Source of the DNA: Octopus vulgaris
Taxonomy: Eukaryota
Assembly: GCA_951406725.2 (NCBI GenBank)
Contig: OX597815.1
Coordinates: forward strand, 44,888,001-44,952,000
DNA: 64,000 nucleotides
Direction: 5' to 3'
The position numbers were made by a program, and so were the translations under genes. Positions 1 through 62,969 of this stretch are shown in pieces. Under the pieces are notes generated by a model that made no database searches, was not told where the DNA came from, and saw only the letters and a program-made list of their open reading frames with translations. The stretch's first letter is position 1. Each line of letters starts with the position of its first letter.

Positions 1-894
1 GTACATTATTTTATCGATCCAATAAGGATGAAAGGCAACGCCGACCCCCAGAGAAAACGACAACATACCAGCCACAACAAAAACAAACAGGAGTATCAGG
101 TTGTGATTATAAATAAGCAAGGCAGTTAAATTCGCAACGATTTTTGACAGAACGAGAAAGATCATATACACAAAAAAAAAAATCCAACAAAACAAAGTGC
201 TTATAAAAACAAAAGAAAATAGGAAAAAATTGTGAAAAGGCGTCGTATAAAACAACACAAATAAATGAATGTAATCCCTAAAAGAAAGGGAATGAAAAAG
301 GGATGGAATATTATAACTGTAATAAGAAATGGGGTGTATAAATAAAATGGGTGAAGGACGAAGAAGTAAAATAGAAAACAAGGGAGATAACAACTGATCA
401 CCGTATCTAGGAAATATTAGTTGGCTGCCGAAAACATTGGTTACAGAAAATGTAGACTGACGGGTCTCCCTTTAAGTTTGTTAATGGCGCCACTAAACAT
501 TACCAAAATGAATAACTCATCAGCTTTCCTGAAGCTATGGCTCCTAGTTAAGGCGCGCGTGACGACTTCCTTTAGCGATAAGGTCGGCAGTCATCACAAG
601 TAGTGACGCCACATTACTGCATAGACCAAGTCGTCTGGCTGACGACATGTTTTAAACCATAACAACATCTCTGTGGAAATTGACAAGAGAAATAGGTGAC
701 AATTGTTTCTTTTAAATAAATAATTATTTTTATTAATTTACGCATTCACACGCACACACACCCATATATGCACATATGGATTATAAACACATATACACAT
801 ACGGATTATAAATATACAATATATATATATATATAATGTACACACACAAATACAATTGCAGAGACATAAAAACATATACATACTGAATAGTTGT

Positions 895-1360
<466 letters not shown>

Positions 1361-1362
1361 GA

Positions 1363-1496
<134 letters not shown>

Positions 1497-1846
1497 GCGT
1501 TTAGTTTTATAGCTGGGAGGGTAACTGCTCAATTGTATATGTATATGTGTTTGTATGTCTCTGTAATCATATTTAAGTGTATATTTAAGTCTATTCTTAG
1601 CTACAATAGCGACAACATGAATTTCTTCCATCTTGTTGCTCTGTTAAGAAAAATTATATTAATTTGTGCAGCTGCTGATAGCACTGCATTTAAATTGATG
1701 TAATGATTGCATTGTTCAATGCAATCCGGTTGATATCCGGTTGCTTATTTTGATTATGTGTGTGTGTGTGTGCATACATACATATATATATATGCGTATC
1801 TACATATTTGTATATATGTACACACACACCCACACATATGTGTAAA

Positions 1847-1926
<80 letters not shown>

Positions 1927-1940
1927 AAGAAAAATATGTA

Positions 1941-2181
1941 AAATAGTCTTAATGGTAAAAAGTCCAATTCCTTGGATGACGTTAAAAGATACCTTGATGA
2001 ATTCTTTGCCATGAAAGCACCTCAATTCTCAGAAGAGGGTATTTTCAAGTTAAAGGAAAGATGGAGACGCATTGTGCAACAAAATGGTTCGTATTTGGCT
2101 GATTAAAAGTGTAATGGCAAGTATTTATTGACCTTTTTCTTTTCTTTAAAAATCGGCACTAACTTTCCGGACAACCCAATA
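1941..2181 (+). mobile_element. Tc1/mariner transposon 3' remnant (transposase C-terminus plus right TIR)
   Basis: Reads [54 protein letters not shown], the typical mariner C-terminus (GIxKLxxRWxxxxxxNGxY). Followed by a TIR-like 'aaaatcggcactaactttccggacaacccaaTA'. Confidence 0.85.
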
Positions 2182-2499
2182 CATTGTTTCTTTAATATTC
2201 ATCGTAACTATATATCACACACTCGATCACGCAGACCTACACATTTGCTCACATACGTATACATGCTCACACACAAATACATGCACTCTGTAAAAACAAT
2301 TATACAAACGCTCATACACCCGCGCAAGCGTTTTATTCTTTATTTCTTTACTAGTTTTGTGCCCCACATAGAGGCATATAACAAACAGTCATATATAAGT
2401 TTGTGCTAATCCCAATCACAAATACATACGCATACAGGGGTGCGTACATGCATGAAGCCCCAACGCATATATATACGCTATACACATGAACAAAAAACA

Positions 2500-2812
2500 T
2501 GGCACTCTGACGGTTACGATGACGAGGCTTCCAGTTGATCGATCAACGGAACAGCTTGTTAGTGAAATCAACGTGCAAGTGACTGAGCACTACACAGACA
2601 CAGCAGTTCTTTCTCTAGAAGATTCTGTGTAACACAGAATTTGACAAGGCTGGCCTTTTTAATTGAAGGTGCAACTCATTTTCATCAGCTAAGAGCTGAC
2701 TGAACTGGAGCAACGTGAAATAAAGTGTCTTGCTCAAGGACATAACTCGCCGCCGGAAATCGATCACCTAACGTTACGATTATCAGCCAAAAACCACTAG
2801 GCCACGCACTTT
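2500..2812 (-). mobile_element. tRNA-derived SINE (family C), degenerate
   Basis: Minus strand starts 'gcgtggcctagtggt...' and contains 'gtccttgagcaagacacttta', a common SINE core. A related plus-strand copy lies at ~19105-19360. Confidence 0.6.
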
Positions 2813-3584
2813 CACATCCCAATAGCGTATACATACACTTTAAAATAAATGTTGCGTGAGATAATTTGAAATATTTTTTGAAACGTATTATAAAGTAGAC
2901 CTAATTCCACAAATATAAAGTTCTCGCTCCGCTGTGGAAAGTATAACAAAATGGTTCCTCACGTTGATTTATTTACCTGTCAGCAAATTGATTTCAATCA
3001 TTCAGCCCAACTTTTATTGCTCTTGTTCTCTTAATCACAGAGAGCACACCTAATTTCATTTTCCATACCTAGCCTCTTCAATTTTGCCATTTATCGACCA
3101 TGTACGATCTTTTGATTCTCTTGTCTGACATAGTATTCAGTAGTCCCATTATTCATACAGCGTTAAGTATCTTTTCTAAATTTTTCTGTGATCTGGATTA
3201 TTTAACTAGCTTTGCCAGTAAAATATCTAGTTTATTTTTTCAGTTACCCTTCCTTTTATCGCTTTTTACAACTTCGATTTCTAACTCCGTTCACGAAAAT
3301 ACTTTGTTGTGCTGTATATTGCACGAATGTATGATCATCTGATTGACAATTGAACATTTAAGACAGTTCGGAAATAGTTTCTGACAACGCTCAAGTACAT
3401 TTTCTTCTTTTTGTCCAGCCTGTTCTTGTTTCGATATTGTTGAATAGTTTAGTCTACCAAATCCACTCACAAGGCATTGGTCGGTCCGAGGCTATAGTAG
3501 AAGACATTTGTCCAAGGTTCTACACAGTTGGTACTGCACCCGGAAAGATGTGGTTGGGAAGCAAGCTTCTTATTTCTGTATTGC

Positions 3585-25345: not shown

Positions 25346-27184
25346 TAGAAATTTTACTGAGGTCGACAAAATGCTTAGCGGTATTTCTTTAGGCTCTTTA
25401 CTTTCTGAGTTCATATTTTGCCGAGATCGACTGTGCTTTTTGGATTCGATAAAACAAGTGCCTGGAGCGTAATCGAGTTACATTCATCCCCTAACTTTGC
25501 TGACCTTGTGCAAATACTTGTGAGAAATTTAGTCTATAATTAGTGGTTTATTTGAATACTCGTACGTCAAAAGAGTTCTCACTGAATTAAATTTAAACAA
25601 TAACACTACATATTTTAATCTATTACAGCTGGGGTTTTTTCTCTTCTTTTATTCTTTTACTAGTTTCAATCGCTAAACTGCAACCATGCTAGGGCACCGC
25701 GTTGGAGGATTTAATCAAACAGCTTGCCCCCATTAATTCGTCCCTTTTGCCAAAGTGCTAAGTTAAGGAAACGAAAGTAAACCAACGCCGGTTTTTAAAC
25801 GGTGGTAGGAGATAAAGCGAAAGACATGCATGCGTACGCATATACACGTGTGTGTGTGTATATATACACACACAGACATGTACACACGACTAGCTTCACA
25901 CAGCTTCCGTTTACCAAATTCATCCTCCAGCTAATGATCTGCTCGGATCTTAATAGATCCGAGGTACCACGCACTGAAACTGAACCCGAAACACGGTTGA
26001 GAAGCGAACTTCTTAACCACATAGCTATATTATTTTTTCTTCTTTCTAATTCTATAAATCATATATGATTTGTATACGATCACCAGCCCCATTATGGATA
26101 CGTATTTTAGTGAAAGAGCCTCAAGATGGTCCCTAGACTTGCTGCAAGAGAACCGAAAGAACTTTGGCTCAGAATCAAAATATTGTTTTCTTGCCCTAGA
26201 ATGCAGGTCTAAATATTTTCTGGTGTTTAGTTACGCCCCTTTACGTCAAATACCGAAAAATACTGAGATTCAGCAATTTCGCATGTTACCTACTTATTTG
26301 TCGTCGTGTGCGAGTAATGCGAGAAAACAGTGATGGTGCCGACTAACTCCATTTACTTAATAATAGAATTAATATTTAGGGACCTTTATGTTATTTCTAA
26401 ATGTTTACTGTGTAAAGAAACGAACTATTCCTTTCCAAATTGTAACCCAATTTGTACACTATAGAAATGGGGGTATCCACCACAATCACCTCCTTAGAAT
26501 ATCAAGTTTTCTGCTTCAGCTGAAATATTGTCGGTGTCAAGTTTGCAATGTCACTATTTAGAATGAACATTATGTACTACTATAATGACCGTACAAACAC
26601 TGACCTTGAGAATAGTTAAAATACATCATCATTACCATCATCATCATCGTCATCATCATCATTATCATCATCATTATTGCAGTCATTATTCACCAGTGTC
26701 AGTTCGTATAAGTTGCAGATATTTAAAGAGAAGAAATTATTTACCAAGGTACGTACGTGTGTACGAGTATCTTAATGCCTTAATACAAAACACATTTTTG
26801 GCTTTGTATCATTTTCAACACACCGTACTGGTTTGACATTCATTACATATTTCTTTGTTGATTGTCAATGTTGGAGAGGTTTATCGCATTAATTATAAAT
26901 TCAGTTATATTTTTATTTGAATTATTCTTATTTATTTCTTATTTGACTTTTATTTATTTTCGTTTGGAGAAACACTCCATGATCGTTAATGTTTTATTAT
27001 TTCCCTGTTTACAATTAATCAATGCAACACACACAGACACACATCAATTTAGAAATTTGACAAGCGTCTGTGTTATCACATACTCCTTGTAGTATGTGAT
27101 GGACAAATGGATGTCGTCTGTTACTGTAGATTTCCTAGATCAAAATGGACCTGGAGCTAAGCAATAACAATAAAAATATTTCAA

Positions 27185-27302
27185 ACACTACTTTTATCAT
27201 ACTGAAAAGATCGGTTCTCGTCTGATCACCGAAGTTAAGCAACGTCGAGCCTAATTAGTACTTAGATGAGTGATTGCTTCGGGAACCTACATGCTGTAAT
27301 TA
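27185..27302 (+). pseudogene. 5S rRNA-derived pseudogene (unit 1)
   Basis: 'cggttctcgtctgatcaccgaagttaagcaacgtcgagcctaattagtacttagatgagtga...gggaa...tgctgta' matches metazoan 5S rRNA including the box A region. Ends and box C are diverged. Confidence 0.85.
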
Positions 27303-29970: not shown

Positions 29971-30630
29971 CACACACACTCATATATACATCTTCACACG
30001 TCCTGTTTTGTATTGAATGTATGGGCCGTTGTAGCAAAGAATTATAGTTGTTGTTGAATGGATATGTTAATTTCAGAATATATAAAAGTGAACAAAGAAT
30101 AGCAGCAAAATGGTTGGTTCGATGCCAGGTTTCAAATCTCAGCTGAATGTGTTGCTCATTCTTCAGATATTTAATACCATTTTAATGGTTTCGGTATTTG
30201 ATACAAAAGAGATGTTCCTTTTTTTTTCCTCAATCGGTTCTACACTTCGAATCTCGCTGGTATTATTGAATTTCTATTGCTGCAGAGTTTATTAAACAAA
30301 TACCAGTAACATCATTGGCATTATTCTATGAACCGAGTAATGAAAGAGAAATAAAAGCAAGGCATAATCCGCAGTAAAAAAAAGTAGAACTTTGGAATTT
30401 TTTCAATTTTCTTGTTCTCAAATACACTTGAAAGACAAAGATATGAATGCTATAAATCGTAATTTCAAAACTCCGATATTTTGAGAATGCAAAAAAGAAA
30501 GTATTCTATTGTTACATCATCACAATTACATGATTTTTTAAACACAAATTGAAAGAATGGAAGATTTTAAAACAAATATTATTGCGTTCTATTATACCTT
30601 TAGTCGAGAACTTTTGAGATATTCCATAAA

Positions 30631-30700
30631 TGACGTATGTTTAACCCCGCCCACTTTTGGTATTTTGGGCTATAAAAGGCCAGCGATTTCTCATTTCTAT
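30631..30700 (+). promoter_or_regulatory. Pol II core promoter (unit 1)
   Basis: TGACGTA at 30631, GC box CCCCGCCC at 30645-30652, TATAAAAG at 30671-30678. Identical in units 2-4. Confidence 0.7.
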
Positions 30701-30724
30701 CGAGGCACCAACACCGATCTAATC

Positions 30725-30786
30725 TGACATGATCTCAACTGATCTCGATCGGGGAAATTATAATCAGGTCAGTTGACATCAGGTCA
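30725..30786 (+). ncRNA. pre-miRNA-sized hairpin in exon 1 (also 38501-38562, 43881-43942, 53312-53373)
   Basis: 5' arm tgacatgatctcaactgatctcgat versus reverse complement of the 3' arm tgacctgatgtcaactgacct-gat, with a ~13-nt loop. Confidence 0.55.
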
Positions 30787-31024
30787 ACATACTTCGTTAC
30801 TGGTAAGTATACCAGGCGAGTACAAAACGAAGCTTTGTTTTGTTGACTTGCCAAGTCAGCATTAAAGTCTGCTTAGATGAGCATAAAATTATGTAAACTT
30901 GCTTGTTTACGTGCCCGTAACTAGCGGTTCGGCAAAAATACCGATAAAGTACCAGGCCCAGCAGATCACTTTTAATTTCCTCGATGATTAATTTGTATCA
31001 CTTGCATTCTATAGGAGCTCTGGG

Positions 31025-31276
31025 GTTCGATGAGAACCAACTTACCAACCTAGTCTGAAGGGAATAACACCTCGGTATTCTAGGACGAAGAAATCATGTA
31101 ATTGTGATGTAATTGTGATGACGTAACAATGCTTCGTGACAGGGTCCTCTTTCTCAGCCCTATCTAGCTCAGAGCCGGATATATAGAACGCTGTCACGAA
31201 GCATTCCATTCTTCGTCCTAGAATACCGAGGTGTTATTCCCTTCAGACCAGGTTGGTAAGTTGGTTCTCATCGAAC
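31025..31276 (+). repeat. Long inverted repeat / hairpin A (unit 1)
   Basis: Arms 31025-31092 and 31209-31276 are complementary at 67/68 positions. Inner stem 31128-31145/31188-31205; outer stem 31006-31023/31307-31324. Confidence 0.95.
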
Positions 31277-31609
31277 GCAGCCACCCTTACCCGTCTTGTG
31301 GATTAGCCAGAGTCTCTATAGAATACCGAGGTGTTATTCCCGCAGCCAGCCTTACCTGTCTTGTGGATTTACGGCACTCCTTCTGCCATTCAGATTACAT
31401 CTAATGAGACCGGGTTTAAATCTTTCCAGCGAGGCCGGTTGCAGCAAGAACTCCTCCGCCAGCAGACTCCTTAACACTCTCCAGGTGGCACCAGAGATAT
31501 CTCAGTCTCCCCAGACAACTCTTTAGCGGTTCCTGGCTGCACACGGAGCGCTTCACAAGTGATTTTCCCCCTCTCCACAAAAAGCGAAATAAGGAGTCGT
31601 TCCAGCTTG
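31209..31609 (-). mobile_element. Shuffled L1/Tx1-clade LINE ORF2 fragments, antisense to the putative transcript
   Basis: Minus strand reads KLERLL/FRFLWRGGKSLVKRSVC(S/C)QEPLKSCLG, matching the L1/Tx1 post-RT motif FxWxG...V...C..P...GGLG. Further peptide-like pieces EWQKECR*ALL, GNNTSVFYRD and FDENQLTNLV follow. Confidence 0.7.
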
Positions 31610-31613
31610 TTTA

Positions 31614-31950
31614 GCCCGATCCCTTCGACTAAAAATTGAAAGCAGTGCTCCTAACTTAACGGTTCGGCAAAAGGAACAATATAACATAAGTACCAGCGTT
31701 TCAAAAAAGCGCCCGATTCCTTCGACTAAAAATTGAAAGCGGAGCGCCTAACTTAGCGGTTCGGAAAAAGGACCCCGATACCTTCAAAAATTGGAAGCGG
31801 TGCTCCTAACTTAGCGGTTCGGCAGCGGTTCGGCAAAAGGACCAATAAAACATAAGTACCAGCGTTTCATAAAAGCGCCCGATTCCTTCGACTAAAAATT
31901 GAAAGCGGTGCTCCTAACTTAGCGCTTCGGCAAAAGGACCAATAAAACAA
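31614..31950 (+). repeat. ~95-bp minisatellite derived from the SINE family A body; copy number varies between units
   Basis: Unit 'cccgattccttcgactaaaaattgaaagcggtgctcctaacttagcggttcggcaaaaggaccaataaaacataagtaccagcgtttcaaaaaagcg'. Also at 39403-39690, 44755-44918 and 54186-54525. Confidence 0.85.
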
Positions 31951-32225
31951 TGATTAGGTCGGTTTTATGAACCCTTGAGTCTTTAAACACCCTCTGCAAC
32001 ATGCTGGTTGGTGTCATAACATAGTTGCAAGGTGTACGGGGAGTGTCACGTGACCGTATAGACTCTTAACCAGGCTCTTCTAGTGCAGGAAACCTGGGGG
32101 TTCCAACCAGAAATCGCAGTAATGTTTTAACTTCTACGTCTTGCCCTTTATTTTACAGGTAAAGGGCATATAGTTGATTCAAGAATTCACAGCACTTACA
32201 ATTAAACTTGATATAAAACTTGGCA

Positions 32226-33019: not shown

Positions 33020-33899
33020 AGGTAAAAACCGATATCAAATTAAGACGTTACTATTGCTACACTTACTGCTGCTACACATCCTGAGAGACACTCGGTTGAT
33101 TAGGTCGGTTTTATGAACCCTTGAGTCTTTAAACAGGCACACTCCAGCCCCAGGCCCGCACGAGACCTCTGAAACATTACTGACGATGCATCCCAGAGCA
33201 TCTGCAAGTATTAGTAGTAGTAAGTAGTAAGTAGTAGTTAGGGTTAGGGTTTGATTTTGAAATTAAGGGAAAAAATGCATAGAAAAGATACATATACATA
33301 CATACACTTACATACACGCACACACGTACACACATGCACACATATATTAATAAATAAAATAAAATTTTAATTAGGACACCAAGTCAGGGTCAAGATTAGA
33401 TCATCATGCATATATGCATGCACATACAGACGTATTTTGAAATTTGCATAAACATGTACATGAACAAATCAAGATATACATCCATATAAATATCCATGTA
33501 TATGAAATTATGCATGCTGGCATGCTGTTTCCCGACCCACTGATTTCCTGACCCAACGTAGGGAAGTTTCTAGGTGTAGTGTTTACATAAAGAAAGAATA
33601 CAAGTGTGTTAAGCTTCACTACAGCTGTTTCAGACATGTTTTTAAAGATAATGATTTTCATTTGATTATAAACATATTTTGCAAGTAAGAATGTTTCGTA
33701 ATTCTTTGACTATGAGTGAGAGAATTGTGTGTGTGTATGCGCGCGCGTATGTGCGGTTATGTGTGTGCGCAAATGTGTGTGAGTTTGTGTGCATTTTCGT
33801 GTTTACGCGTGAGTCTGTGTGCTTGTGTGTAGATGGAATGATTTAAGATAACCGTCTACATAGATAACTAGCTAGCCGAATATATTAAATAAAAAGATC

Positions 33900-34923: not shown

Positions 34924-35059
34924 TTAGAAATTTGACAATCGTCTGGGTAATCACATACTCCTTGTAGTATGTGATGGTCAAATGGATGTCGTCTGTTACT
35001 GTAGATTTCCTAGATCAAATTGGACCTGGAGCTAAGCAATAACAATAAAAATATTTCAA

Positions 35060-35176
35060 ACACTACCTTTATCATACTGAAAAGATCGGTTCTCGTCTGA
35101 TCACCGAAGTTAAGCAACGCCGAGTCTAATTAGTACTTAGATGAGTGATTGCTTCGGGAACCTACATGCTGTAATT
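35060..35176 (+). pseudogene. 5S rRNA-derived pseudogene (unit 2)
   Basis: Copy of 27185-27302. Confidence 0.82.
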
Positions 35177-35595
35177 AGTTTCAGATGCTGGCGTGGCTGT
35201 ATGTTGTAAGAAGTTTGCTTCCGAACCATAAAGTTCCGGATTCAAACCCACTGCGTGACATCTTGGGCAAGCGTCTTCGGCAAAAGCGGTTCAGCAACAG
35301 CGACGATGAAGACGACGATGAATAGACATTATTTGTGCGGCACATCTCCTCTGCTAGTCTTTTAATCGACCTGCAGTTCACCGCATTTGAGAAAAATGCT
35401 TACCTTTAAAAAAGAAAATACGGTTATATTTTCTTGTTTGCATTACTTTTGCAATATTTACACGTTACAAGATGACCGTCCAATCCCTTGTTAGTGGATT
35501 TGGTAAACGGAAACTGAAAGACACATGTCGTAGCAGTGCTCCAGCATGTCTTCAGTCAAATGACTGAAACAAGTTAAAGAATAAAAGAATGTGTA

Positions 35596-38406: not shown

Positions 38407-39990
38407 TGACGTATGTTTAACCCCGCCCACTTTTGGTATTTTGGGCTATAAAAGGCCAGCGATTTCTCATTTCTATCGAGGCACCAGCACCGATCTAATC
38501 TGACATGATCTCAACTGATCTCGATCGGGGAAATTATAATCAGGTCAGTTGACATCAGGTCAACATACTTGGTTACTGGTAAGTATACCAGGCGAGTACA
38601 AAACGAAGCTTTGTTTTGTTGACTTGCCAAGTCAGCATTAAAGTCTACTTAGATGAGCATAAAATTATGTAAACTTGCTTGTTTACGTGCCCGTAACTTA
38701 GCGGTTCGTCAAAAATACCGATAAAGTACCAGGCCCAGCAGATCACTTTTAATTTCCTCGATGATTAATTTGTATCACTTGCATTCTATAGGAGCTCTGG
38801 GGTTCGATGAGAACCAACTTACCAACCTAGTCTGAAGGGAATAACACCTCGGTATTCTAGGACGAAGAAATCATGTAATTGTGATGTAATTGTGATGACG
38901 TAACAATGCTTCGTGACAGGGTCCTCTTTCTCAGCCCTATCTAGCTCAGAGCCGGATATATAGAACCCTGTCACGAAGCATTCCATTCTTCGTCCTAGAA
39001 TACCGAGGTGTTATTCCCTTCAGACCAGGTTGGTAAGTTGGTTCTCATCGAACGCAGCCACCCTTACCCGTCTTGTGGATTAGCCAGAGTCTCTATAGAA
39101 TACCGAGGTGTTATTCCCGCAGCCAGCCTTACCTGTCTTGTGGATTTGTCAAGAGTGCCTAACGGCACTCCTTCTGCCATTCAGATTACATCTAATGAGA
39201 CCGGGTTTAAATCTTTCCAGCCAGGCCGGTTGCAGCAAGCACTCCTCCGCCAGCAGACTCCTTAACACCCAGGTGGCACCAGAGATATCTCAGTCTCCCC
39301 ACACAACTCTTTAGCGGTTCCTGGCAGCACACGGAGCGCTTCACAAGTGATTTTCCCCCTCTTCACAAAAAGCGAAATAAGGAGTCGTTCCAGCTTGTTT
39401 AGCCCGATTCCTTCGACTAAAAATTGAAAGCGGTGCTCCTAACTTAACGTTTCGGCAAAAGGACCAATAAAACATAAGTACCAGCGTTTCAAAAAAGCGC
39501 CCGATTCCTTCGACTAAAAATTGAAAGCGGTGCTCCTAACTTAGCGGTTCGGCAGCGGTTCGGCAGCTGTTCGGCAAAAGGACCAATAAAACATAAGTAC
39601 CAGCGTTTCAAAAAAGCGCCCGATTCCTTCGACTAAAAATTGAAAGCGGTGCTCCTAACTTAGCGGTTCGGCAAAAGGACCAATAAAACAATGATTAGAT
39701 CGGTTTTATGAACCCTTGAGTCTTTAAACACCCTCTGCAACATGCTGGTTGGTGTCATAACATAGTTGCAAGGTGTTCGGGGAGTGTCACGTGACCGTAT
39801 AGACTCTTAACCAGGCTCTTCCAGTGCAGGAAACCTGGGGGTTCCAACCAGAAATCGCAGAAATGTTTTAACTTCTACGTCTTGCCCTTTATTTTACAGG
39901 TAAAGGGCATATAGTTGATTCAAGAATTCACAGCACTTACAATTAAACTTGATATAAAACTTGGCAAATAAAATATTTTTATGGTTTCGT
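38407..39990 (+). ncRNA. Putative hairpin-RNA gene with promoter (unit 2)
   Basis: TATA at 38447, donor at 38579, acceptor at 38791, hairpin A at 38802-39053. Hairpin B is deleted in this unit. Confidence 0.6.
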
Positions 39991-43786: not shown

Positions 43787-45220
43787 TGACGTATGTTTAA
43801 CCCCGCCCACTTTTGGTATTTTGGGCTATAAAAGGCCAGCGATTTCTCATTTCTATCGAGGCACCAACACCGATCTAATCTGACATGATCTCAACTGATC
43901 TCGATCGGGGAAGTTATAATCAGGTCAGTTGACATCAGGTCAACATACATGGTTACTGGTAAGTATACCAGGCGAGTACAAAACGAATCTTTGTTTTGTT
44001 GACTTGCCAAGTCAGCATTAAAGTCTGCTTAGATGAGCATAAAATTATGTAAACTTGCTTGTTTACGTGCCCGTAACTTAGCGGTTCGGCAACAATACCG
44101 ATAAAGTACCAGGCCCAGCAGATCACTTTTAATTTCCTCGATGATTAATTTGTATCACTTGCATTCTATAGGAGCTCTGGGGTTCGATGAGAACCAACTT
44201 ACCAACCTAGTCTGAAGGGAATAACACCTCGGTATTCTAGGACGAAGAAATCATGTAATTGTGATGTAATTGTGATGACGTAACAATGCTTCGTGACAGG
44301 GTCCTCTTTCCCAGCCCTATCTAGCTCAGAGCCGGATATATAGAACCCTGTCACGAAGCATTCCATTCTTCGTCCTAGAATACCGAGGTGTTATTCCCTT
44401 CAGACCAGGTTGGTAAGTTGGTTCTCATCGAACGCAGCCACCCTTACCCGTCTTGTGGATTAACCAGAGTCTCTATAGAATACCGAGGTGTTATTTGTCA
44501 AGAGTGCCTAACGGCACTCCTTCTGCCATTCAGATTACATCTAATGAGACCGGGTTTAAATCTTTCCAGCGAGGCCGGTTGCAGCAAGAACTCCTCCGCC
44601 AGCAGACTCCTTAACACCCTCCTGGTGGCACCAGAGATATCTCAGTCTCCCCAGACAACTCTTTAGCGGTTCCTGGCAGCACACGGAGCGCTTCACATGT
44701 GATTTTCCCCCTCTCCACAAAAAGCGAAATAAGGAGTCGTTCCAGCTTGTTTAGCCCGATTCCTTCGACTAAAAATTGAAAGCGGTGCTCCTAACTTAGC
44801 GGCTAAAGGACCAATAAAACATAAGTACCAGCGTTTCAAAGAAGCGCCCGATTCCTTCGACTAAAAATTGAAAGCGGTTTTCCTAACTTAGCGGTTCGGC
44901 AAAAGGACCAATAAAACAATGATTAGGTCGGTTTTATGAACCCTTGAGTCTTTAAACACCCTCTGCAACATGCTGGTTGGTGTCATAACATAGTTGCAAG
45001 GTGTACGGGGAGTGTCACGTGACCGTATAGACTCTTAACCAGGCTCTTCCAGTGCAGGAAACCTGGGGGTTCCAACCAGAAATCGCAATAATGTTTTAAC
45101 TTCTACGTCTTGCCCTTTATTTTACAGGTAAAGGGCATATAGTTGATTCAAGAATTCACTGCACTTACAATTAAACTTGATATAAAACTTGGCAAATAAA
45201 ATATTTTAATGGTTTCGTTT
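43787..45220 (+). ncRNA. Putative hairpin-RNA gene with promoter (unit 3)
   Basis: TATA at 43827, donor at 43959, hairpin A at 44182-44433. Confidence 0.6.
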
Positions 45221-53217: not shown

Positions 53218-54825
53218 TGACGTATGTTTAACCCCGCCCACTTTTGGTATTTTGGGCTATAAAAGGCCAGCGATTTCTCATTTCTATCGAGGCACCAGCA
53301 CCGATCTAATCTGACATGATCTCAACTGATCTCGATCGGGGAAATTATAATCAGGTCAGTTGACATCAGGTCAACATACTTGGTTACTGGTAAGTATACC
53401 AGGCGAGTACAAAACGAAGCTTTGTTTTGTTGACTTGCCAAGTCAGCATTAAAGTCTGCTTAGATGAGCATAAAATTATGTAAACTTGCTTGTTTACGTG
53501 CCCGTAACTTAGCGGTTCGGCAAAAATACCAATAAAGTACCAGGCCCAGCAGATCACTTTTAATTTCCTCGATGATTAATTTGTATCACTTGCATTCTAT
53601 AGGAGCTCTGGGGTTCGATGAGAACCAACTTACCAACCTAGTCTGAAGGGAATAACACCTCGGTATTCTAGGACGAAGAAATCATGTAATTGTGATGTAA
53701 TTGTGATGACGTAACAATGCTTCGTGACAGGGTCCTCTTTCTCAGCCCTATCTAGCTCAGAGCCGGATATATAGAACCCTGTCACGAAGCATTCCATTCT
53801 TCGTCCTAGAATACCGAGGTGTTATTCCCTTCAGACCAGGTTGGTAAGTTGGTTCTCATCGAACGCAGCCACCCTTACCCGTCTTGTGGATTAGCCAGAG
53901 TCTCTATAGAATACCGAGGTGTTATTTGTCAAGAGTGCCTAACGGCACTCCTTCTGCCATTCAGATTACATCTAATCAGACCGGGTTTAAATCTTTCCAG
54001 CGAGGCCGGTTGCAGCAAGAACTCCTCCGCCAGCAGACTCCTTAACACTCTCCAGGTGGCACCAGAGATATCTCAGTCGCCCCAGACAACTCTTTAGCGG
54101 TTCCTGGCAGCACACGGAGCGCTTCACAAGTGATTTTCCCCCTCTCCACAAAAAGCGAAATAAGGAGTCGTTCCAGCTTGTTTAGCCCGATTCCTTCGAC
54201 TAAAAATTGAAAGCGGTGCTCCTAACTTAACGGTTCGGCAAAAGGACCAATAAAACATAAGTACCAGCGTTTCAAAAAAGCGCCCGATTCCTTCGACTAA
54301 AAATTGAAAGCGGAGCTCCTAAATTAGCGGTTCGGCAAAAGGACACCGATTCCTTCGACTAAAAATTGAAAGCGGTGCTCCTAACTTAGCGGTTCGTCAG
54401 CGCTTCGGCAAAAGGACCAATAAAACATAAGTACCAGCGTTTCAAAAAAGCGCCCGATTCCTTCGACTAAAAATTGAAAGCGGTGCTCCTAACTTAGCGC
54501 TTCGGCAAAAGGACCAATAAAACAATGATTAGGTCGGTTTTATGAACCCTTGAGTCTTTAAACACCCTCTGCAACATGCTGGTTGGTGTCATAACATAGT
54601 TGCAAGGTGTACGGGGAGTGTCACGTGACCGTATAGACTCTTAACCAGGCTCTTCTAGTGCAGGAAACCTGGGGGTTCCAACCAGAAATCGCAGTAATGT
54701 TTTAACTTCTACGTCTTGCCCTTTATTTTACAGGTAAAGGGCATATAGTTGATTCAAGAATTCACAGCACTTACAATTAAACTTGATATAAAACTTGGCA
54801 AATAAAATATTTTAATGGTTTCGTT
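53218..54825 (+). ncRNA. Putative hairpin-RNA gene with promoter (unit 4)
   Basis: TATA at 53258, exon-1 hairpin at 53312-53373, hairpin A at 53613-53864. Confidence 0.6.
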
Positions 54826-58198: not shown

Positions 58199-58777
58199 TC
58201 TCTGTGCTTGTCCCCGACCACCGCTTGACAACTGGTATTATGTTTACGTTCTTGTAACTTCGCAGTTCGGCAAAAGACCTCAATAGAATAAGTAGTTTAC
58301 AAAAAATGAGTCCTGGGGTCGATTCATTCGACTAAAACATTCATCTAAGCGGTGCCCCAGCATGGCCACATTATAATGACTGAAACAAGATAAAAGATAT
58401 TTTCGTGCTCGGTGTCACTAGAACTCCATGTCGATGATGAGTGAGAAGCCGATCAAGAAGCCATGGCGTCTCCTCTTTCAGCGTGGAACCGGCTGAAGAC
58501 TAACAGCACCACTCTGTCTTCCTGTGCTGGTGAGATGAAAAAAGAGATTAGAGATAGGAGATTAGCGAATGGTGGGAAATCACTAAGAAAAGCTGCAAAA
58601 CATTAATGAAACTAGATAAAAATCAAATAAAATAGACATATAAATATATGTGTGTGTGTATGTATATATATATATATATAACGGGAAGCTTTATGAAAAT
58701 AAACAAAAGACGAAGGCAGGTGGAAAACAAACGAACAATTGTATTAGTATGGCGCTCAGGAAATATAAATAAAATAA

Positions 58778-58816
58778 GTCTTTAACGTTTCGAGCCTACG
58801 CTCTTCAACAGAAAGA
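58778..58816 (-). ncRNA. Minimal hammerhead-like motif in the Penelope terminus (non-canonical core)
   Basis: Minus strand: tcttt CTGTTGA a gagc-gtag-gctc GAAA cgtt aaaga. Stems I and II and a palindromic stem III are present, but the core deviates from CUGAnGA. Confidence 0.45.
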
Positions 58817-58997
58817 TACACAGAGAGAGAAAAACACAGAAAGAAGGAGAGAAAAAAATGCGTGCAGTAGCTAACGAATCAACATGGCGATCTGATTTCG
58901 GCCAGAGGTCAAAGATCAAACATGAGACGCGAGAGCGAAATAAGGGGAGATAATAGGGTTGATAAATGGGTTGAGGGACCAGCTAATAGTGTTTAGG

Positions 58998-59720
58998 AGG
59001 GGTCTGGATGTGTGTATGTATAGGGTTGGTGTATGTATTAGTATGTATAAGGGTGTGTGTGTGTGTGTGTGTGTGTGTATGAGAGAGTATTAGTGCGTAG
59101 GATTGGTCTGGACGTGCGTATGTATGGGGTTGGTGTATGTATTAGTATGTATTAGTATGTATTATTACGTATTGGTGTGTATAAGTGTGTGTGTGTGTGT
59201 ATGAGAGAGTATAAGTGCGTATGCGGGGTCTGGACGTGTGTATGTATAGGGTTGGTGTATGTATTAGTATGTATAAGGGTGTGTGTGTGTGTGTGTGTAT
59301 GAGAGAGTATTAGTGCGTAGGATTGGTCTGGACGTGCGTATGTATGGGGTTGGTGTATGTATTAGTATGTATTAGTATGTATTATTACGTATTGGTATGT
59401 ATAAGTGTGTGTGTGTGTGTATGAGAGAGTATAAGTGCGTATGCGGGGTCTGGACGTGTGTATGTATAGGGTTGGTGTATGTATTAGTATGTATAAGGGT
59501 GTGTGTGTGTGTGTGTGTGTATGAGAGAGTATTAGTGCGTAGGATTGGTCTGGACGTGCGTATGTATGGGGTTGGTGTATGTATTAGTATGTATTAGTAT
59601 GTATTATTACGTATTGGTATGTATAAGTGTGTGTGTGTGTGTATGAGAGAGTATAAGTGCGTATGCGGGGTCTGGACGTGTGTATGTATAGGGTTGGTGT
59701 ATGTATTAGTATGTACTAGT
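58998..59720. repeat. ~220-bp tandem repeat (about 3.3 copies) in the Penelope 3' region
   Basis: 'ggggtctgga(c/t)gtgtgtatgtatagggttgg' recurs at ~59000, 59225, 59445 and 59667. Confidence 0.9.
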
Positions 59721-60092
59721 ATGTATTAGTACGTATTAGTATGTATTAGTTGGTGTGTGTGTATTAGTATGGCACATCATATGTGATGTGATGTGTAAAG
59801 TCATGTGGTGTAGTGAGGAGAAGAGGGGGAGGGGGAGGAGAGGGAGGAGAGAAGGGGAGGGGAATAAGAGGGGGAGGAGAGGGGGAAGAGGAGAGGATGG
59901 GGGAGGAGGGGGATGAAGGAGGAAAGAGGGAGAGGGGGAGAGAGAAGGAGAGAGAGGGAGTGAGGGAGCAGAGGGAAGGGGAAGAGGGAGGGAGAAAGAG
60001 GGAAGAAGGGAAGGGGAGTAGGGGTGAAAGGATGAAGGACTGAATAAGTAGGGGTCGGGGGGAAAGGATAGATGAGGAGGGGGGAGAGGGGG

Positions 60093-60589
60093 TTAGATGA
60101 GGAGGCGGGGAGAGTTGAGACCAAATGGCGTATAAGAGCGAAGAGAGAAGATTAATTCCTGTTCACGGCGCAAACGGGAATCCGGATGGCCTCTGTGTAA
60201 GGACAAACCGAACACAGATAGGTGTTGCAAGGAGTGACCGGTGGAGCGGAAATGGCGTGAGACCGGTGTGTCGTTCGCAAGGTGGATGTCACGAAGGTGT
60301 TCCGCGAACCGGTCAGCCAAGCGGCGTCCCGTTTGTCCGATGTACAAGGAATTGCAGAGAGAGCAAGAGATGCAATAGATAATATTGCTGGAGGTGCAGG
60401 TGAAGGAGTGGATGATGGGATAGGGTCGATGGTGGGTGCTAGTGAGGCGGGTGGTGTTGGAGTGGTAAGGGCAAGTGCGGCAACGTGGGCGGGAGCAAGG
60501 GAACGAGCCGGGTTGGGAGGTAGGGTCAGGGAAGGAGCTATGGACCAAAAGGTCTCGAAGGTTGTGGGCTCGTTTGAAAGAGGAGGGGG
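60093..60589 (-). CDS. Penelope-type GIY-YIG endonuclease (continuation after the frameshift)
   Basis: FKRAHNLRDLLVHSS, CSRPRCRTC, FTCTSSNIIYCISCSLCNSLYIGQTGRRLADRFAEH, RREQELI...GLN. Confidence 0.92.
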
Positions 60590-62320
60590 TCGGTTAGGGA
60601 AGAGGTGTGAAGTGGACGGGTCGGACTGGAGATGACGGAAAGCTCGAAGAATGGTGCGTTGGAGACGTAGGGTCGTGGGGTGGTAAGTGAGGGGAAAAGG
60701 GAGGCGGGAGACTACAGGGCGGGTTCGGGGAGAGAGAGCAGATACCCGGTCCACGGACCGTGCTCTGGCAAGGGCGGTGTGGATAGTGGTGAGGGGGTAT
60801 CCACGTAGGGTGAAGTGGTGAGCCATACGTTGAGACTGAGTCTCAAAGTCATGGTCGTCACTACAGAGCCTTCGTAGACGGAGGAATTGGAAATAGGGGA
60901 TGGAAAGCTTGGTGTGTTCTGGGTGGGAGGAAGAGAAGTTGAGGTATGAGTGTGAGTCTGTGTGTTTGTAGTGAATGGAGGTGGTAAGAATGGAGTGAAG
61001 AATGCTAACCGAAATGTCGAGGAAGGAGACAGAGGTGTTGGAGATAGTGGAAGTGAAGTGGAGGGCTGGATGGAAAGATTGGACGAAAGAGAGGAAGGAA
61101 TCTAGATGTTCGCGGGAGAGTGAGGTGGCACCGATAATGTCGTCAATGTAACGACCACATAGTTCAGGAGTGGGACCAGTGAAATTAGAGAATATTTGGG
61201 CCTCAACATAGCCAACGAACAGGTTCGCATAGTTGGGGCCCATTCGCGTTCCCATGGCCAATCCCGAGACCTGATGGTAGAACTCGCCCGCGAACGAGAA
61301 GCAGTTCAGAGTAAGGACAAGTTCGGCCAGACGAATGAGTGTGGAGGTGTCAGGTACAGGGTTAGAGCGGAGGTCAAGAAAGTGTCGAAGGGCCTGCAGT
61401 CCTTCGTGGTGAGGGATAACAGTATAGAGGCTTTGGATGTCCATAGTAAAAAGGATTTTGGAGGAGCCGGGAGGAAAGGAGAAAGAGTTGAAAAGCCGGA
61501 GAGCATGGATGGTATCGTGGATGTGGGAGGGAAGAGATGCCACTAGGGGGGCAAGGACACGGTCGAGGTATTTAGAGATGAGCTCCGTGGGGCAGTTACA
61601 GGCGGAGACGATAGGGCGGCCAGGGTTGTTGGGTTTGTGGATTTTGGGGAGGAAGTAAATGGTGGAGGTACGTGGGGTTCGCACAATTAGGTTGGATGCG
61701 GTGCGGGGGAGACGGGAGGACGAGATGAGGTCTTGGACAGTAGAGGATACCGTCTGTTGGTAGCTACGTGTGGGGTTAGAGGGCAGAGGGGAATAGAAGG
61801 AGGTGTCATTGAGTTGGCGGAAAGCCTCGGCCCTATAGAAGTCCGCGCGCCACACCACTACAGCTCCATCCTTGTCAGCCGGTTTGATGATAATGTCAGC
61901 GCGCCGTTGGAGGGAACGAAGAGCCAAGAGCTCAGCCGGGGAGATGTTGAGGCGGCGTTGGCGCCTGGAGAAGTTGAACCGCTCCAATGCACGCTGACAA
62001 GCGCCCGCGAAAAGATCCACTGCTAGGATCTGGCCAGGGGCAGGCGTCCACAGGGATGGTCGGCGGCCCAGGCCAGTGAAGCAGTCCTCTTCGTTGGGTG
62101 TGGGTGGCGAGTCGTGGTAATGCGCACTCAACCGGACACGGCGCACAAAGCTGTGGACATCAACTCGCGTCTGGAATTCCTTACAGGATGGAGTGAGGGG
62201 GATGAAACGCAGACCCCTACCAAGGACGGAGCGTTCAGCCGCAGAGAGGGGAAGATCGGGGGGAATGGTAACAACAGACGGAAGTGGAGAAGGGGTGGGT
62301 GGAATAGAAGTAGGAGAAAT
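60590..62320 (-). CDS. Penelope-type reverse transcriptase (5'-truncated, no native start)
   Basis: IIIKPADKDGAVVV, YFLPKIHKPNNPGRPIVS, MDIQSLYT, GLAMGTRMGPNYANLFV, RYIDD, FLDISV, YKHTDSHSYL. Homology ends at a 1-nt frameshift near 60590. Confidence 0.92.
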
Positions 62321-62969
62321 ATATATATATATATATATATCCAAATTAGGGGAGTGGAACGGGTAAAATCTAGACTACGTATGTTACTTAGCGAGCCGAT
62401 CCTCTAATGTAATAATTACTCAACGACAGACACTCTGCTTAGCTAATCATCAGGCCGAGAATACCTTAATTACATAAACGTTACATTGTCGCTTGGAATG
62501 TCAAAGTTAACTCACCGCAGATGTGCGCTGAAATGAGTAGTGAAACTTGAAGAATAGAATAATAAAAAAACAAATACTTGAAGAAATAAAACGGCCAAAA
62601 AGGATGGGGTCAAATATGTGGGAGTAGAAGTCGTATAAAAAAGAAAGAAAAGGAAAAAAATAAATGAAAGAAAGCAGTAGACGTTACTCCCTACGGAGAT
62701 CCGCAACTACGCGGTTTTTCGAAAGGGATTCAATGTCCGATGTAATGTTGAGACTGGGACACAACGAACTAATTAATATGCTGACTGAAGTAGATATGAT
62801 ATAGATAAGTACCAAGCGCTCCTAGACAATAATTTGATAAATTTTGGTAAAGACCGCAGTTAGCAGTCGATCAACTATCGAAAATTTAAGGGTCTTCTTG
62901 GGTCCGTTTAAGCCAAAAATTGTCTGGAAGCAGCAATGAAGAGTCCAGATTGAGAAAGAAACGCAGCTC

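What the first reader, a model, noticed from the sequence alone, without database searches (positions are those of the whole stretch)
31025..31609. Hairpin A and the following 330 nt are built from shuffled antisense pieces of an L1/Tx1 LINE
Seen: the minus strand encodes KLERLL/FRFLWRGGKSLVKRSVCxQEPLKxxLG, then short blocks EWQKECR*ALL, IHKTGK, GNNTSVFYRD and FDENQLTNLV, with internal deletions and duplications. 'tagaataccgaggtgttatt' occurs twice plus once inverted. Known: FxWxG...P...GGLG is characteristic of L1/Tx1 ORF2 just after the RT. Inference: the later blocks belong to the same ORF, so the duplex would give siRNAs against a live LINE family and the rest of the transcript is antisense to it, resembling a captured-target memory cassette.
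Basis: partly seen in the sequence, partly recalled or inferred. Interest (0 to 1): 0.8.

Follow-up and report, generated by a model that had tools for sequence, protein, structure and literature searches.

The report
Edited hairpin from an old retrotransposon
A scrambled, backwards piece of an old jumping gene forms a 68-base-pair hairpin repeated ten times in a row in what is likely an octopus genome; public sequence data show the letter changes expected if the hairpin is made as RNA and edited by ADAR, but it matches the intact young relatives of that jumping gene poorly, so it is likely ordinary edited double-stranded RNA and not a silencing memory.

Summary
Window 30954-31616 is the 3' ~1 kb of an L1/Tx1-type ORF2, inserted antisense, with a 68-bp inverted repeat (67/68). 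Only the arm zone is shuffled; the rest is collinear with deletions. It sits in a SINE inside a TATA-bearing non-coding element, in a tandem array of 10 copies. Contigs of three public runs carry 14 A>G changes, all on the + strand, in both arms (14 of 38 A) and none in the loop (0 of 31 A). These changes are absent from all 10 genomic copies and from two genome-sized runs, so the hairpin is most likely transcribed and ADAR-edited. The run type is not on record. The siRNA-memory reading is not supported. The piece comes from an old, decayed subfamily (best 91%, to a broken copy) and is 84-85% like the young intact copies. No arm 21-mer has 2 or fewer mismatches to the youngest set. The arms are mosaic and show no extra conservation. 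Only one Dicer locus was found, and molluscs reportedly lack the siRNA pathway. Best reading: a template-switch scar in a transcribed repeat, handled by ADAR. An antisense piRNA source remains possible (about 20%).

The parts
30004..30834 (+). 5' part of the non-coding host element: TGACGTA motif 30631-30637, GC box 30645-30652, TATA-like 30671-30677, donor-like GTAAGT 30803-30808 and GCGAGT 30816-30821 (promoter and splice roles inferred)
   Evidence: dispersed relatives at 72-84% on C17, C18, C9; TGACGTA in 5 of 5 aligned, TATAAAA in 3 of 5
30904..30953 (+). Left half of a SINE-like high-copy repeat, interrupted by the LINE piece
30954..31616 (-). Fragment of L1/Tx1-type ORF2 (about nt 2444-3439, aa 815 to end), antisense to the + strand, with about 350 nt and several small pieces deleted
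31025..31092 (+). 5' arm of hairpin A (LINE-sense blocks 31013-31051 and 31060-31082); A>G in run contigs at 31052, 58, 59, 64, 66, 67, 69
31093..31208 (+). Loop: two inverted copies of upstream 30508-30536 (31091-31109, 31107-31130), inner 21-bp stem 31128-31148/31185-31205, antisense LINE blocks; no A>G listed
31209..31276 (+). 3' arm of hairpin A (LINE-antisense mosaic); A>G at 31225, 36, 45, 47, 50, 58, 59
31277..31616 (+). Antisense LINE tail: local direct duplications (23 and 29 nt), then collinear blocks with deletions
31620..31947 (+). Tandem SINE-derived pieces (right half of the interrupted SINE), variable between copies
31947..32190 (+). Host element resumes: 152-nt structured-looking module 31958-32113 and acceptor-like TTTTACAG ending 32158
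38802..39053 (+). Hairpin A, tandem copy 2
44182..44433 (+). Hairpin A, tandem copy 3
53613..53864 (+). Hairpin A, tandem copy 4 (six more copies lie beyond the window, to about window +100.7 kb)

Best explanation
An old L1/Tx1-type LINE fragment, inserted backwards into a non-coding repeat, was later rearranged, likely by one burst of template-switching DNA synthesis, into a 68-bp hairpin and copied ten times in tandem; the hairpin is likely transcribed on the + strand and edited by ADAR as ordinary double-stranded RNA, with likely no silencing role. Shown: LINE origin, block order, insertion into an element whose relatives lack it, ten copies, and clustered same-strand A>G changes in both arms. 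Inferred: that runs X5-X7 are RNA and ADAR made the changes; that the piece lies in an intron of a TATA-driven non-coding transcript or in read-through RNA; the template-switch origin; and neutrality of the amplification.
For: LINE origin and order. Dispersed relatives of the host element join 30890 to 31947 without SINE or LINE. One young burst: all local copies are equally little diverged, whether they can pair or not (arms 1/68, direct repeats 0/23 and 2/29, loop copies of upstream DNA 0/19 and 1/24, inner stem 2/21, outer stem 3/18; 2-3-nt overlaps at the loop junctions), while the piece is 9% or more from any LINE copy examined. Editing signature: 14 A>G sites, 7 of 24 A in the 5' arm, 7 of 14 A in the 3' arm, 0 of 31 A in the loop (Fisher p 1e-4), different subsets in X5, X6 and X7, none the mirror image of another. 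The 10 sites known are A in 10 of 10 genomic copies and the alignment shows no G at the 4 later ones. Genome-sized runs X2 and X3 show only the paralog variant G>C 31190. No extra conservation: 5 of 136 arm positions vary among 10 copies, against 5 of 116 in the loop and 19 of 340 downstream; none is compensated. Octopus has one of the highest hyper-editing rates and densities of near-perfect dsRNA loci (PMC5625713, passages), and most of its editing is in introns and 3'UTRs (PMC9699675, passages).
Against: The kind of runs X5-X7 is not on record, and no DNA of the same individuals was available. Evidence is from contigs of depth 2-13, from one study. Run X1 (an RNA guess) covers 31013-31149 without A>G, and X5 shows none in the 5' arm. 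Ten-fold amplification of a unit with conserved promoter-like motifs could reflect selection that I could not test. Absence of function is not shown; no small-RNA data could be read.
Confidence: 0.66

Rival explanations
1. The array works like a small piRNA trap: + strand transcripts carrying about 400 nt of antisense LINE ORF2 would be cut into piRNAs that guide PIWI to transcripts of the young L1/Tx1 subfamilies. The hairpin itself would be incidental.
For: The RNA direction read from the editing is antisense to ORF2 over 31137-31616. Young intact targets exist. With G:U pairs allowed, 75 of 314 downstream 27-mers have 2 or fewer mismatches to set Y2 and 42 of 314 to Y1. Molluscs express PIWI and piRNAs in soma and germline (PMC6128900, passages). 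Run contigs also cover DNA upstream of the TATA box, as long read-through RNA would.
Against: With strict pairing only 8 of 314 (Y2) and 1 of 314 (Y1) 27-mers have 2 or fewer mismatches, median 6. Mollusc clusters are reported to be enriched in young elements (PMC6128900, passages), and this piece is old. No small-RNA evidence; no conservation signal.
Confidence: 0.2
2. One reading: an hpRNA-like locus whose 68-bp stem would be diced into siRNAs against a live LINE family, amplified like Drosophila hp-CG4068.
For: Long near-perfect stem, likely formed in vivo; built from target sequence; tandem array as for hp-CG4068 with 9-20 copies (PMC10317233, passages). A 28-nt arm block has 5 exact and 26 one-mismatch sites outside the array, control 0.
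Against: Arm 21-mers against young intact sets: 0 of 48 per arm with 1 or fewer mismatches, and 0 (Y1) or 3-4 (Y2) with 2 or fewer. Two exact-match loci of the 28-mer that were re-scored (L105, L107) are broken. The 23-nt block has 0 exact and 8 one-mismatch sites outside the array. One Dicer_dimer locus among 7 candidates scored; no siDicer or siAgo in molluscs (PMC12479628, section 19). About a third of arm adenosines appear edited, which would unwind the stem (established ADAR knowledge, recalled). Arm mutations among copies are uncompensated.
Confidence: 0.07
3. The A>G changes are DNA variants of another population or paralog, or contig errors, and the hairpin is a silent DNA scar.
For: Run kind not on record; organism label D differs from the labels of the DNA-like controls; low depth; several rows rest on one contig.
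Against: In 30985-31345 the X5 differences are 7 A>G plus one known paralog variant, and X6 has 9 A>G, that variant, and 2 T>C on a contig that fits both arms. DNA variants would not be one type on one strand in both arms only, nor differ in subset between three runs.
Confidence: 0.07

Closest known systems
Transposon-derived inverted-repeat ADAR substrates (inverted Alu pairs; palindromic frog Harbinger repeat; octopus hyper-edited loci; PMC5625713, passages)
   Same: Long near-perfect intramolecular stem of transposon origin in non-coding RNA, with clustered A>G on one strand in both arms.
   Different: The stem here was made by local rearrangement of one LINE fragment, not by two insertions or a palindromic element, and was then tandemly amplified.
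Drosophila hpRNAs (hp-CG4068 tandem cluster, hp-tHMG cluster, Nmy/Tmy; PMC10317233, passages)
   Same: Young hairpin built by local duplication of a transposed sequence; tandem copies (10 here, 9-20 there).
   Different: hpRNAs are defined by Dcr-2-dependent 21-22-nt siRNAs and match their targets. Here there is one Dicer locus, no siRNA evidence, and the arms match intact LINE copies poorly.
Mollusc piRNA clusters (PMC6128900, passages)
   Same: Transcribed non-coding region with an antisense transposon fragment.
   Different: One old fragment repeated ten times, not a varied collection of young elements; piRNA production not shown.
Templated insertions of alternative end joining or template switching (SD-MMEJ, polymerase theta; PMC2943611, PMC5728401, PMC5120786: search listing only)
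   Same: Serial short direct and inverted copies of nearby DNA joined by 2-3-nt overlaps.
   Different: Larger (about 300 nt, templates up to about 560 nt away); the enzyme cannot be told from sequence.
L1/Tx1-type LINEs (source of the fragment)
   Same: Two ORFs, ORF1 with a CCHC knuckle, ORF2 with APE, RT and zf-RVT; best solved relative is human L1 ORF2p.
   Different: The fragment is a non-coding, deleted remnant of a decayed subfamily; L1 versus Tx1 placement was not tested by tree.

Membership tests
L1/Tx1-type LINE (source family) | ORF2 with apurinic endonuclease, reverse transcriptase and C-terminal zinc domain | tested here: met
   PF03372, PF00078, PF13966 in L086 and L093 (2 of 2 ORF2 scanned)
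L1/Tx1-type LINE (source family) | Separate ORF1; CCHC zinc knuckle as in Tx1-type elements (criterion recalled) | tested here: met
   zf-CCHC in 3 of 3 upstream ORFs (one below the curated cut-off)
L1/Tx1-type LINE (source family) | RT closest to L1 among characterised clades | tested here: met
   relative P0001 hits human L1 ORF2p at E 4e-50, R2 at 4e-24; only these clades were among the 10 hits
L1/Tx1-type LINE (source family) | Phylogenetic placement in Tx1 versus L1; target-site specificity | not tested
   no reference set of clade sequences was at hand
ADAR hyper-edited dsRNA | Long, nearly perfect intramolecular stem | tested here: met
ADAR hyper-edited dsRNA | Clustered A>G on the transcribed strand, confined to the stem, absent from DNA | tested here: met
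   the DNA controls are other individuals and labels
ADAR hyper-edited dsRNA | Depletion of G 5' of edited A | tested here: inconclusive
   2 of 14 edited versus 10 of 24 unedited; trend only, no test run
ADAR hyper-edited dsRNA | Matched DNA and RNA of one individual | not testable with these tools
   run kind and pairing not on record
hpRNA / endo-siRNA locus | Transcribed long inverted repeat derived from a target | tested here: met
   (transcription inferred from editing)
hpRNA / endo-siRNA locus | Near-full complementarity of arm 21-mers to a live target | tested here: not met
   0 of 48 per arm with 1 or fewer mismatches to sets Y1 and Y2 (9 loci); other young sets may exist unsampled
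hpRNA / endo-siRNA locus | Dedicated siRNA Dicer and Argonaute in the host | tested here: inconclusive
   one PF03368 locus (a divergent second Dicer could be missed; Argonautes not searched); PMC12479628 reports none in molluscs
hpRNA / endo-siRNA locus | Dicer-dependent phased 21-22-nt RNAs | not testable with these tools
   only contigs were served; they lose small RNAs
piRNA cluster (trap) | Transposon fragment antisense to the transcript | tested here: met
piRNA cluster (trap) | Enrichment for young, low-divergence elements | tested here: not met
   best 91% to a broken copy, 84-85% to intact ones
piRNA cluster (trap) | 26-30-nt 1U RNAs, phasing or ping-pong | not testable with these tools
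   no small-RNA reads available

The most novel reading that the evidence does not exclude
A TATA-driven non-coding unit captured an antisense L1/Tx1 fragment, folded it into a hairpin and was amplified ten-fold as a dedicated small-RNA source (piRNAs, or siRNA-like RNAs from the single Dicer) against the still-intact L1/Tx1 subfamilies of an octopus, with ADAR editing setting how much of the stem is processed.
Probability: 0.2. Interest if true: 0.7.

Novelty: new member of a known kind. Interest (0 to 1): 0.3.

Why it matters
As read here it is a clean, traceable example of how a new ADAR substrate is born: old LINE insertion, one local rearrangement, tandem amplification, editing. That is a common class in octopus and of modest interest. 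Its practical value is as a test locus: the deletion and template-switch junctions mark any small RNA as coming from this array alone, so existing octopus small-RNA libraries could show directly whether a mollusc turns a long endogenous hairpin into siRNAs or piRNAs, which a recent survey found elusive (PMC12479628). A positive result would raise the interest to about 0.7.

Tried and rejected
Rfam: no family for the hairpin or its unit apart from a 5S-like match and microsatellite noise; none for the 152-nt module. tRNA scan: 0. The promoter scan is for bacterial promoters and was not used. Host gene: Pfam on the 150 longest of 311 complex stop-to-stop frames in the unit and about 85 kb of flank gave 3 hits, all Tc1/mariner pieces; short exons would be missed. 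Hairpin B (30707-30804) as a conserved pre-miRNA: it folds well here (z -3.7) but not in 3 of 3 relatives folded (z about 0); 6 twelve-letter terms found nothing in 3 supplementary files of PMC9699675, and file 2 was not searched, so a miRNA listing there is not excluded. Run search: no RNA holder listed on record; no evidence either way. Stretches without contig cover (32700-33250) were not used. No splice joint was listed for X5-X7 between the donor-like and acceptor-like sites, so the intron is unproven. A closer young LINE subfamily was sought four ways (the DNA searches scored only 40 of 583-3042 candidates) and not found. Editing bringing the arm closer to intact LINEs: not seen in the two 3'-arm blocks compared. 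Selection on pairing: rejected for lack of conservation or compensation. A hammerhead or hairpin ribozyme reading of the 152-nt module was considered by eye against recalled cores; no full core was found. One search held one sequence in the wrong orientation and was replaced. In one search loci L105 and L107 were scored in the wrong orientation; they were re-scored. Literature searches for this locus or for octopus hairpin siRNAs, piRNA clusters or Tx1 elements showed no report of it; the library lacks most subscription papers. Earlier scan notes near this place or like these sequences: none.

Full report
Setting. The window is G000:C2:44888001-44952000 of a 2.8-Gb, 227-contig, microsatellite-rich genome. 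The nearest named relative of the LINE protein is from the octopod Argonauta hians, 59% identical, so the host is inferred to be an octopus; no call named it. The finding lies in a tandem array: window 30900-31700 has 10 copies at 94-100% within 70 kb, in units of about 3-11 kb with internal deletions, 4 of them inside the window. Nine of the 10 keep the upstream promoter-like part.

Observation. The hairpin (31025-31092 / 31209-31276, 67 of 68 pairs), the 23-mer twice direct and once inverted, and the peptides are present. One quoted block, EWQKECR*ALL, needs 14 nt that this copy lacks and the other 9 have. Mapped on an intact ORF2 (L093), the piece covers nt 2444-3439, aa 815 to the end. Along the + strand the order is 3439-3398; then sense blocks 2838-2876 and 2776-2798 (5' arm); then antisense 3339-3306, 3253-3232, 2798-2776, 2877-2850, 2775-2739, 2803-2753, 2732-2715, 2695-2629, 2623-2583, 2549-2473 and 2468-2444. 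So the backbone is collinear and antisense, about 350 nt are missing, and only the arm zone is shuffled. The loop also holds two inverted copies of the unit's own upstream DNA, 30508-30536.

Source family. Full-length relatives have ORF1 with a CCHC knuckle and ORF2 with APE, RT and zf-RVT. A relative's best solved match is human L1 ORF2p, E 4e-50, against R2 at 4e-24. This is L1/Tx1-type architecture; a clade tree was not made. Two young sets exist among 10 loci fetched: L086/L088 (1140-aa frames, 99.7% over 5 kb on different contigs) and L093/L091 (1134- and 1089-aa frames, 99.5%). The captured piece is not from them. Over 307 nt of ungapped core blocks it is 91% like L092, a broken copy, and 84-85% like the intact ones (41 loci, 8 more and 3 re-scored). 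Its closest relatives are all broken and about 85-89% alike to one another. Arm 21-mers: 0 of 48 per arm within 1 mismatch of either young set, median 5-6; against all 36 LINE loci then held, 7 and 8 of 48 are exact. A 28-nt arm block has 5 exact and 26 one-mismatch sites outside the array; the 23-nt block has 0 and 8. The DNA searches scored only the 40 best candidates each, so an unsampled closer young set is not fully excluded.

Host element. Window 30004-30834, 30839-30890 and 31947-32190 match a dispersed non-coding element of about 1.6 kb at 70-86%. In relatives L055 and L057 the first and last parts lie about 300 nt apart with no SINE or LINE, so 30890-31947 is an insertion: a SINE-like repeat, itself interrupted by the LINE piece. 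The element keeps TGACGTA (5 of 5 aligned), a TATA-like box (3 of 5) and donor-like sites, and an acceptor-like site near 32158. These roles are inferred from motifs. No host protein gene was found (150 of 311 frames scanned).

Origin of the hairpin. All local duplications are about equally young, whether or not they can pair: arms 1/68, direct repeats 0/23 and 2/29, loop copies 0/19 and 1/24, inner stem 2/21, outer stem 3/18, with 2-3-nt overlaps at the loop junctions. That is far below the 9% or more to any LINE copy examined. I infer one burst of template-switching synthesis long after insertion and before amplification, since all 10 copies fold at -173 to -190 kcal/mol. Papers on such scars were seen as a search listing only. 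Among the 10 copies 5 of 136 arm positions vary, against 5 of 116 in the loop and 19 of 340 downstream, with no compensated pair: no sign of selection on pairing.

Evidence for RNA. Seven of 24 listed runs hold the stretch or part of it; none is on record as RNA. Six were laid. X5, X6 and X7 (62-69 Mb of contigs, one study) show 14 A>G sites, all in the arms and on the + strand: 7 of 24 A in the 5' arm, 7 of 14 in the 3' arm, 0 of 31 in the loop, which all three cover (Fisher p 1e-4). The subsets differ by run. Two T>C in X6 lie on a contig that fits both arms and mirror two of the 5'-arm sites. The genomic copies have A at these sites. X2 and X3 (1.5-2.2 Gb of contigs, taken as DNA) show only G>C 31190, a variant of 9 of 10 copies. 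Site 31052 faces a C mismatch in a UAG context. G precedes 2 of 14 edited and 10 of 24 unedited A, the direction of the ADAR preference reported in PMC5625713 (passages), too few to test. Against: X1 shows no A>G over 31013-31149, X5 none in the 5' arm, depths are 2-13, hid 13 rows, and no matched DNA exists. Contigs of X5-X7 also run across and upstream of the TATA-like box, unspliced, so the start site is unknown and read-through is possible. I put transcription plus ADAR editing at about 90%.

Function. The siRNA model needs a siRNA pathway and a matching live target. One Dicer_dimer locus was found among 7 candidates. PMC12479628 (section 19 read whole, other passages) reports a single Dicer, no siAgo and no siRNA signature in molluscs including O. 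bimaculoides, and suggests editing as the fate of such dsRNA. The arms are mosaics that match intact copies poorly. Drosophila hpRNA clusters are the closest anatomical parallel but are defined by Dcr-2 products (PMC10317233, passages). A piRNA role is less constrained: downstream 27-mers within 2 mismatches of young set Y2 number 8 of 314 strictly and 75 of 314 with G:U allowed, and molluscs have somatic piRNAs, though their clusters favour young elements (PMC6128900, passages). Best reading (0.66): an edited passenger hairpin in a transcribed, tandemly amplified repeat. Rivals: piRNA source 0.20, siRNA hairpin 0.07, A>G not editing 0.07.

Novelty. Transposon-derived edited hairpins are abundant in octopus (PMC5625713, PMC9699675, passages). 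Searches showed no report of this locus. Verdict: new member of a known kind, interest 0.3; it is a good test locus for the fate of long endogenous dsRNA in molluscs.

Noticed in passing
window 31958-32113; relatives L070-L084: A dispersed 152-nt module (41 matches listed of 104 candidates) with a conserved multi-stem fold and a possible 8-bp pseudoknot to its 3' end. On 13 sequences 92% of cells pair and 9 of 52 pairs change on both sides, partly through one related subgroup (the structure was drawn from these sequences); single-sequence z is about 0. No Rfam match. It occurs in tandem 298-nt monomers on C21 and just after GTAAGT-like sites in some C13 copies, and contigs with it reach depth 90-158 in X5-X7. 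Candidate unknown structured RNA or ribozyme; worth its own study.
   Followed up: partly
L086 (C1), L088 (C4), L093 (C24), L091 (C23): Two young L1/Tx1-type subfamilies with long open ORF2 frames and 99.5-99.7% identity between chromosomes. PMC9115989 (passages) reports only RTE and Dong elements as full-length in octopus and does not mention Tx1.
   Followed up: partly
window 30004-30890 and 31947-32190; L055-L058, L072, L082: A dispersed family of about 6 non-coding elements with conserved TGACGTA, GC box, TATA-like box, tandem donor-like sites and an acceptor-like site; no ORF found. Could be a small lncRNA family or a non-autonomous mobile element.
   Followed up: partly
window 30707-30804: Second, miRNA-sized hairpin just after the TATA-like box (z -3.7); not conserved as a fold in 3 relatives.
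   Followed up: partly
window 27183-27302 and 35058-35177: Diverged 5S rRNA-like sequence in the tandem unit, 43 and 48 bits against a cut-off of 38; likely a pseudogene.
   Followed up: no
window about 58680-62374: An insertion in one unit with a 740-aa minus-strand frame carrying an RT and a GIY-YIG-like end by eye; likely a Penelope-like element.
   Followed up: no
window 33097-33135: A second partial copy of the start of the 152-nt module within the unit.
   Followed up: no
L029 2526-3313 and 6493-6735 (upstream of the window): Tc1/mariner transposase fragments.
   Followed up: no
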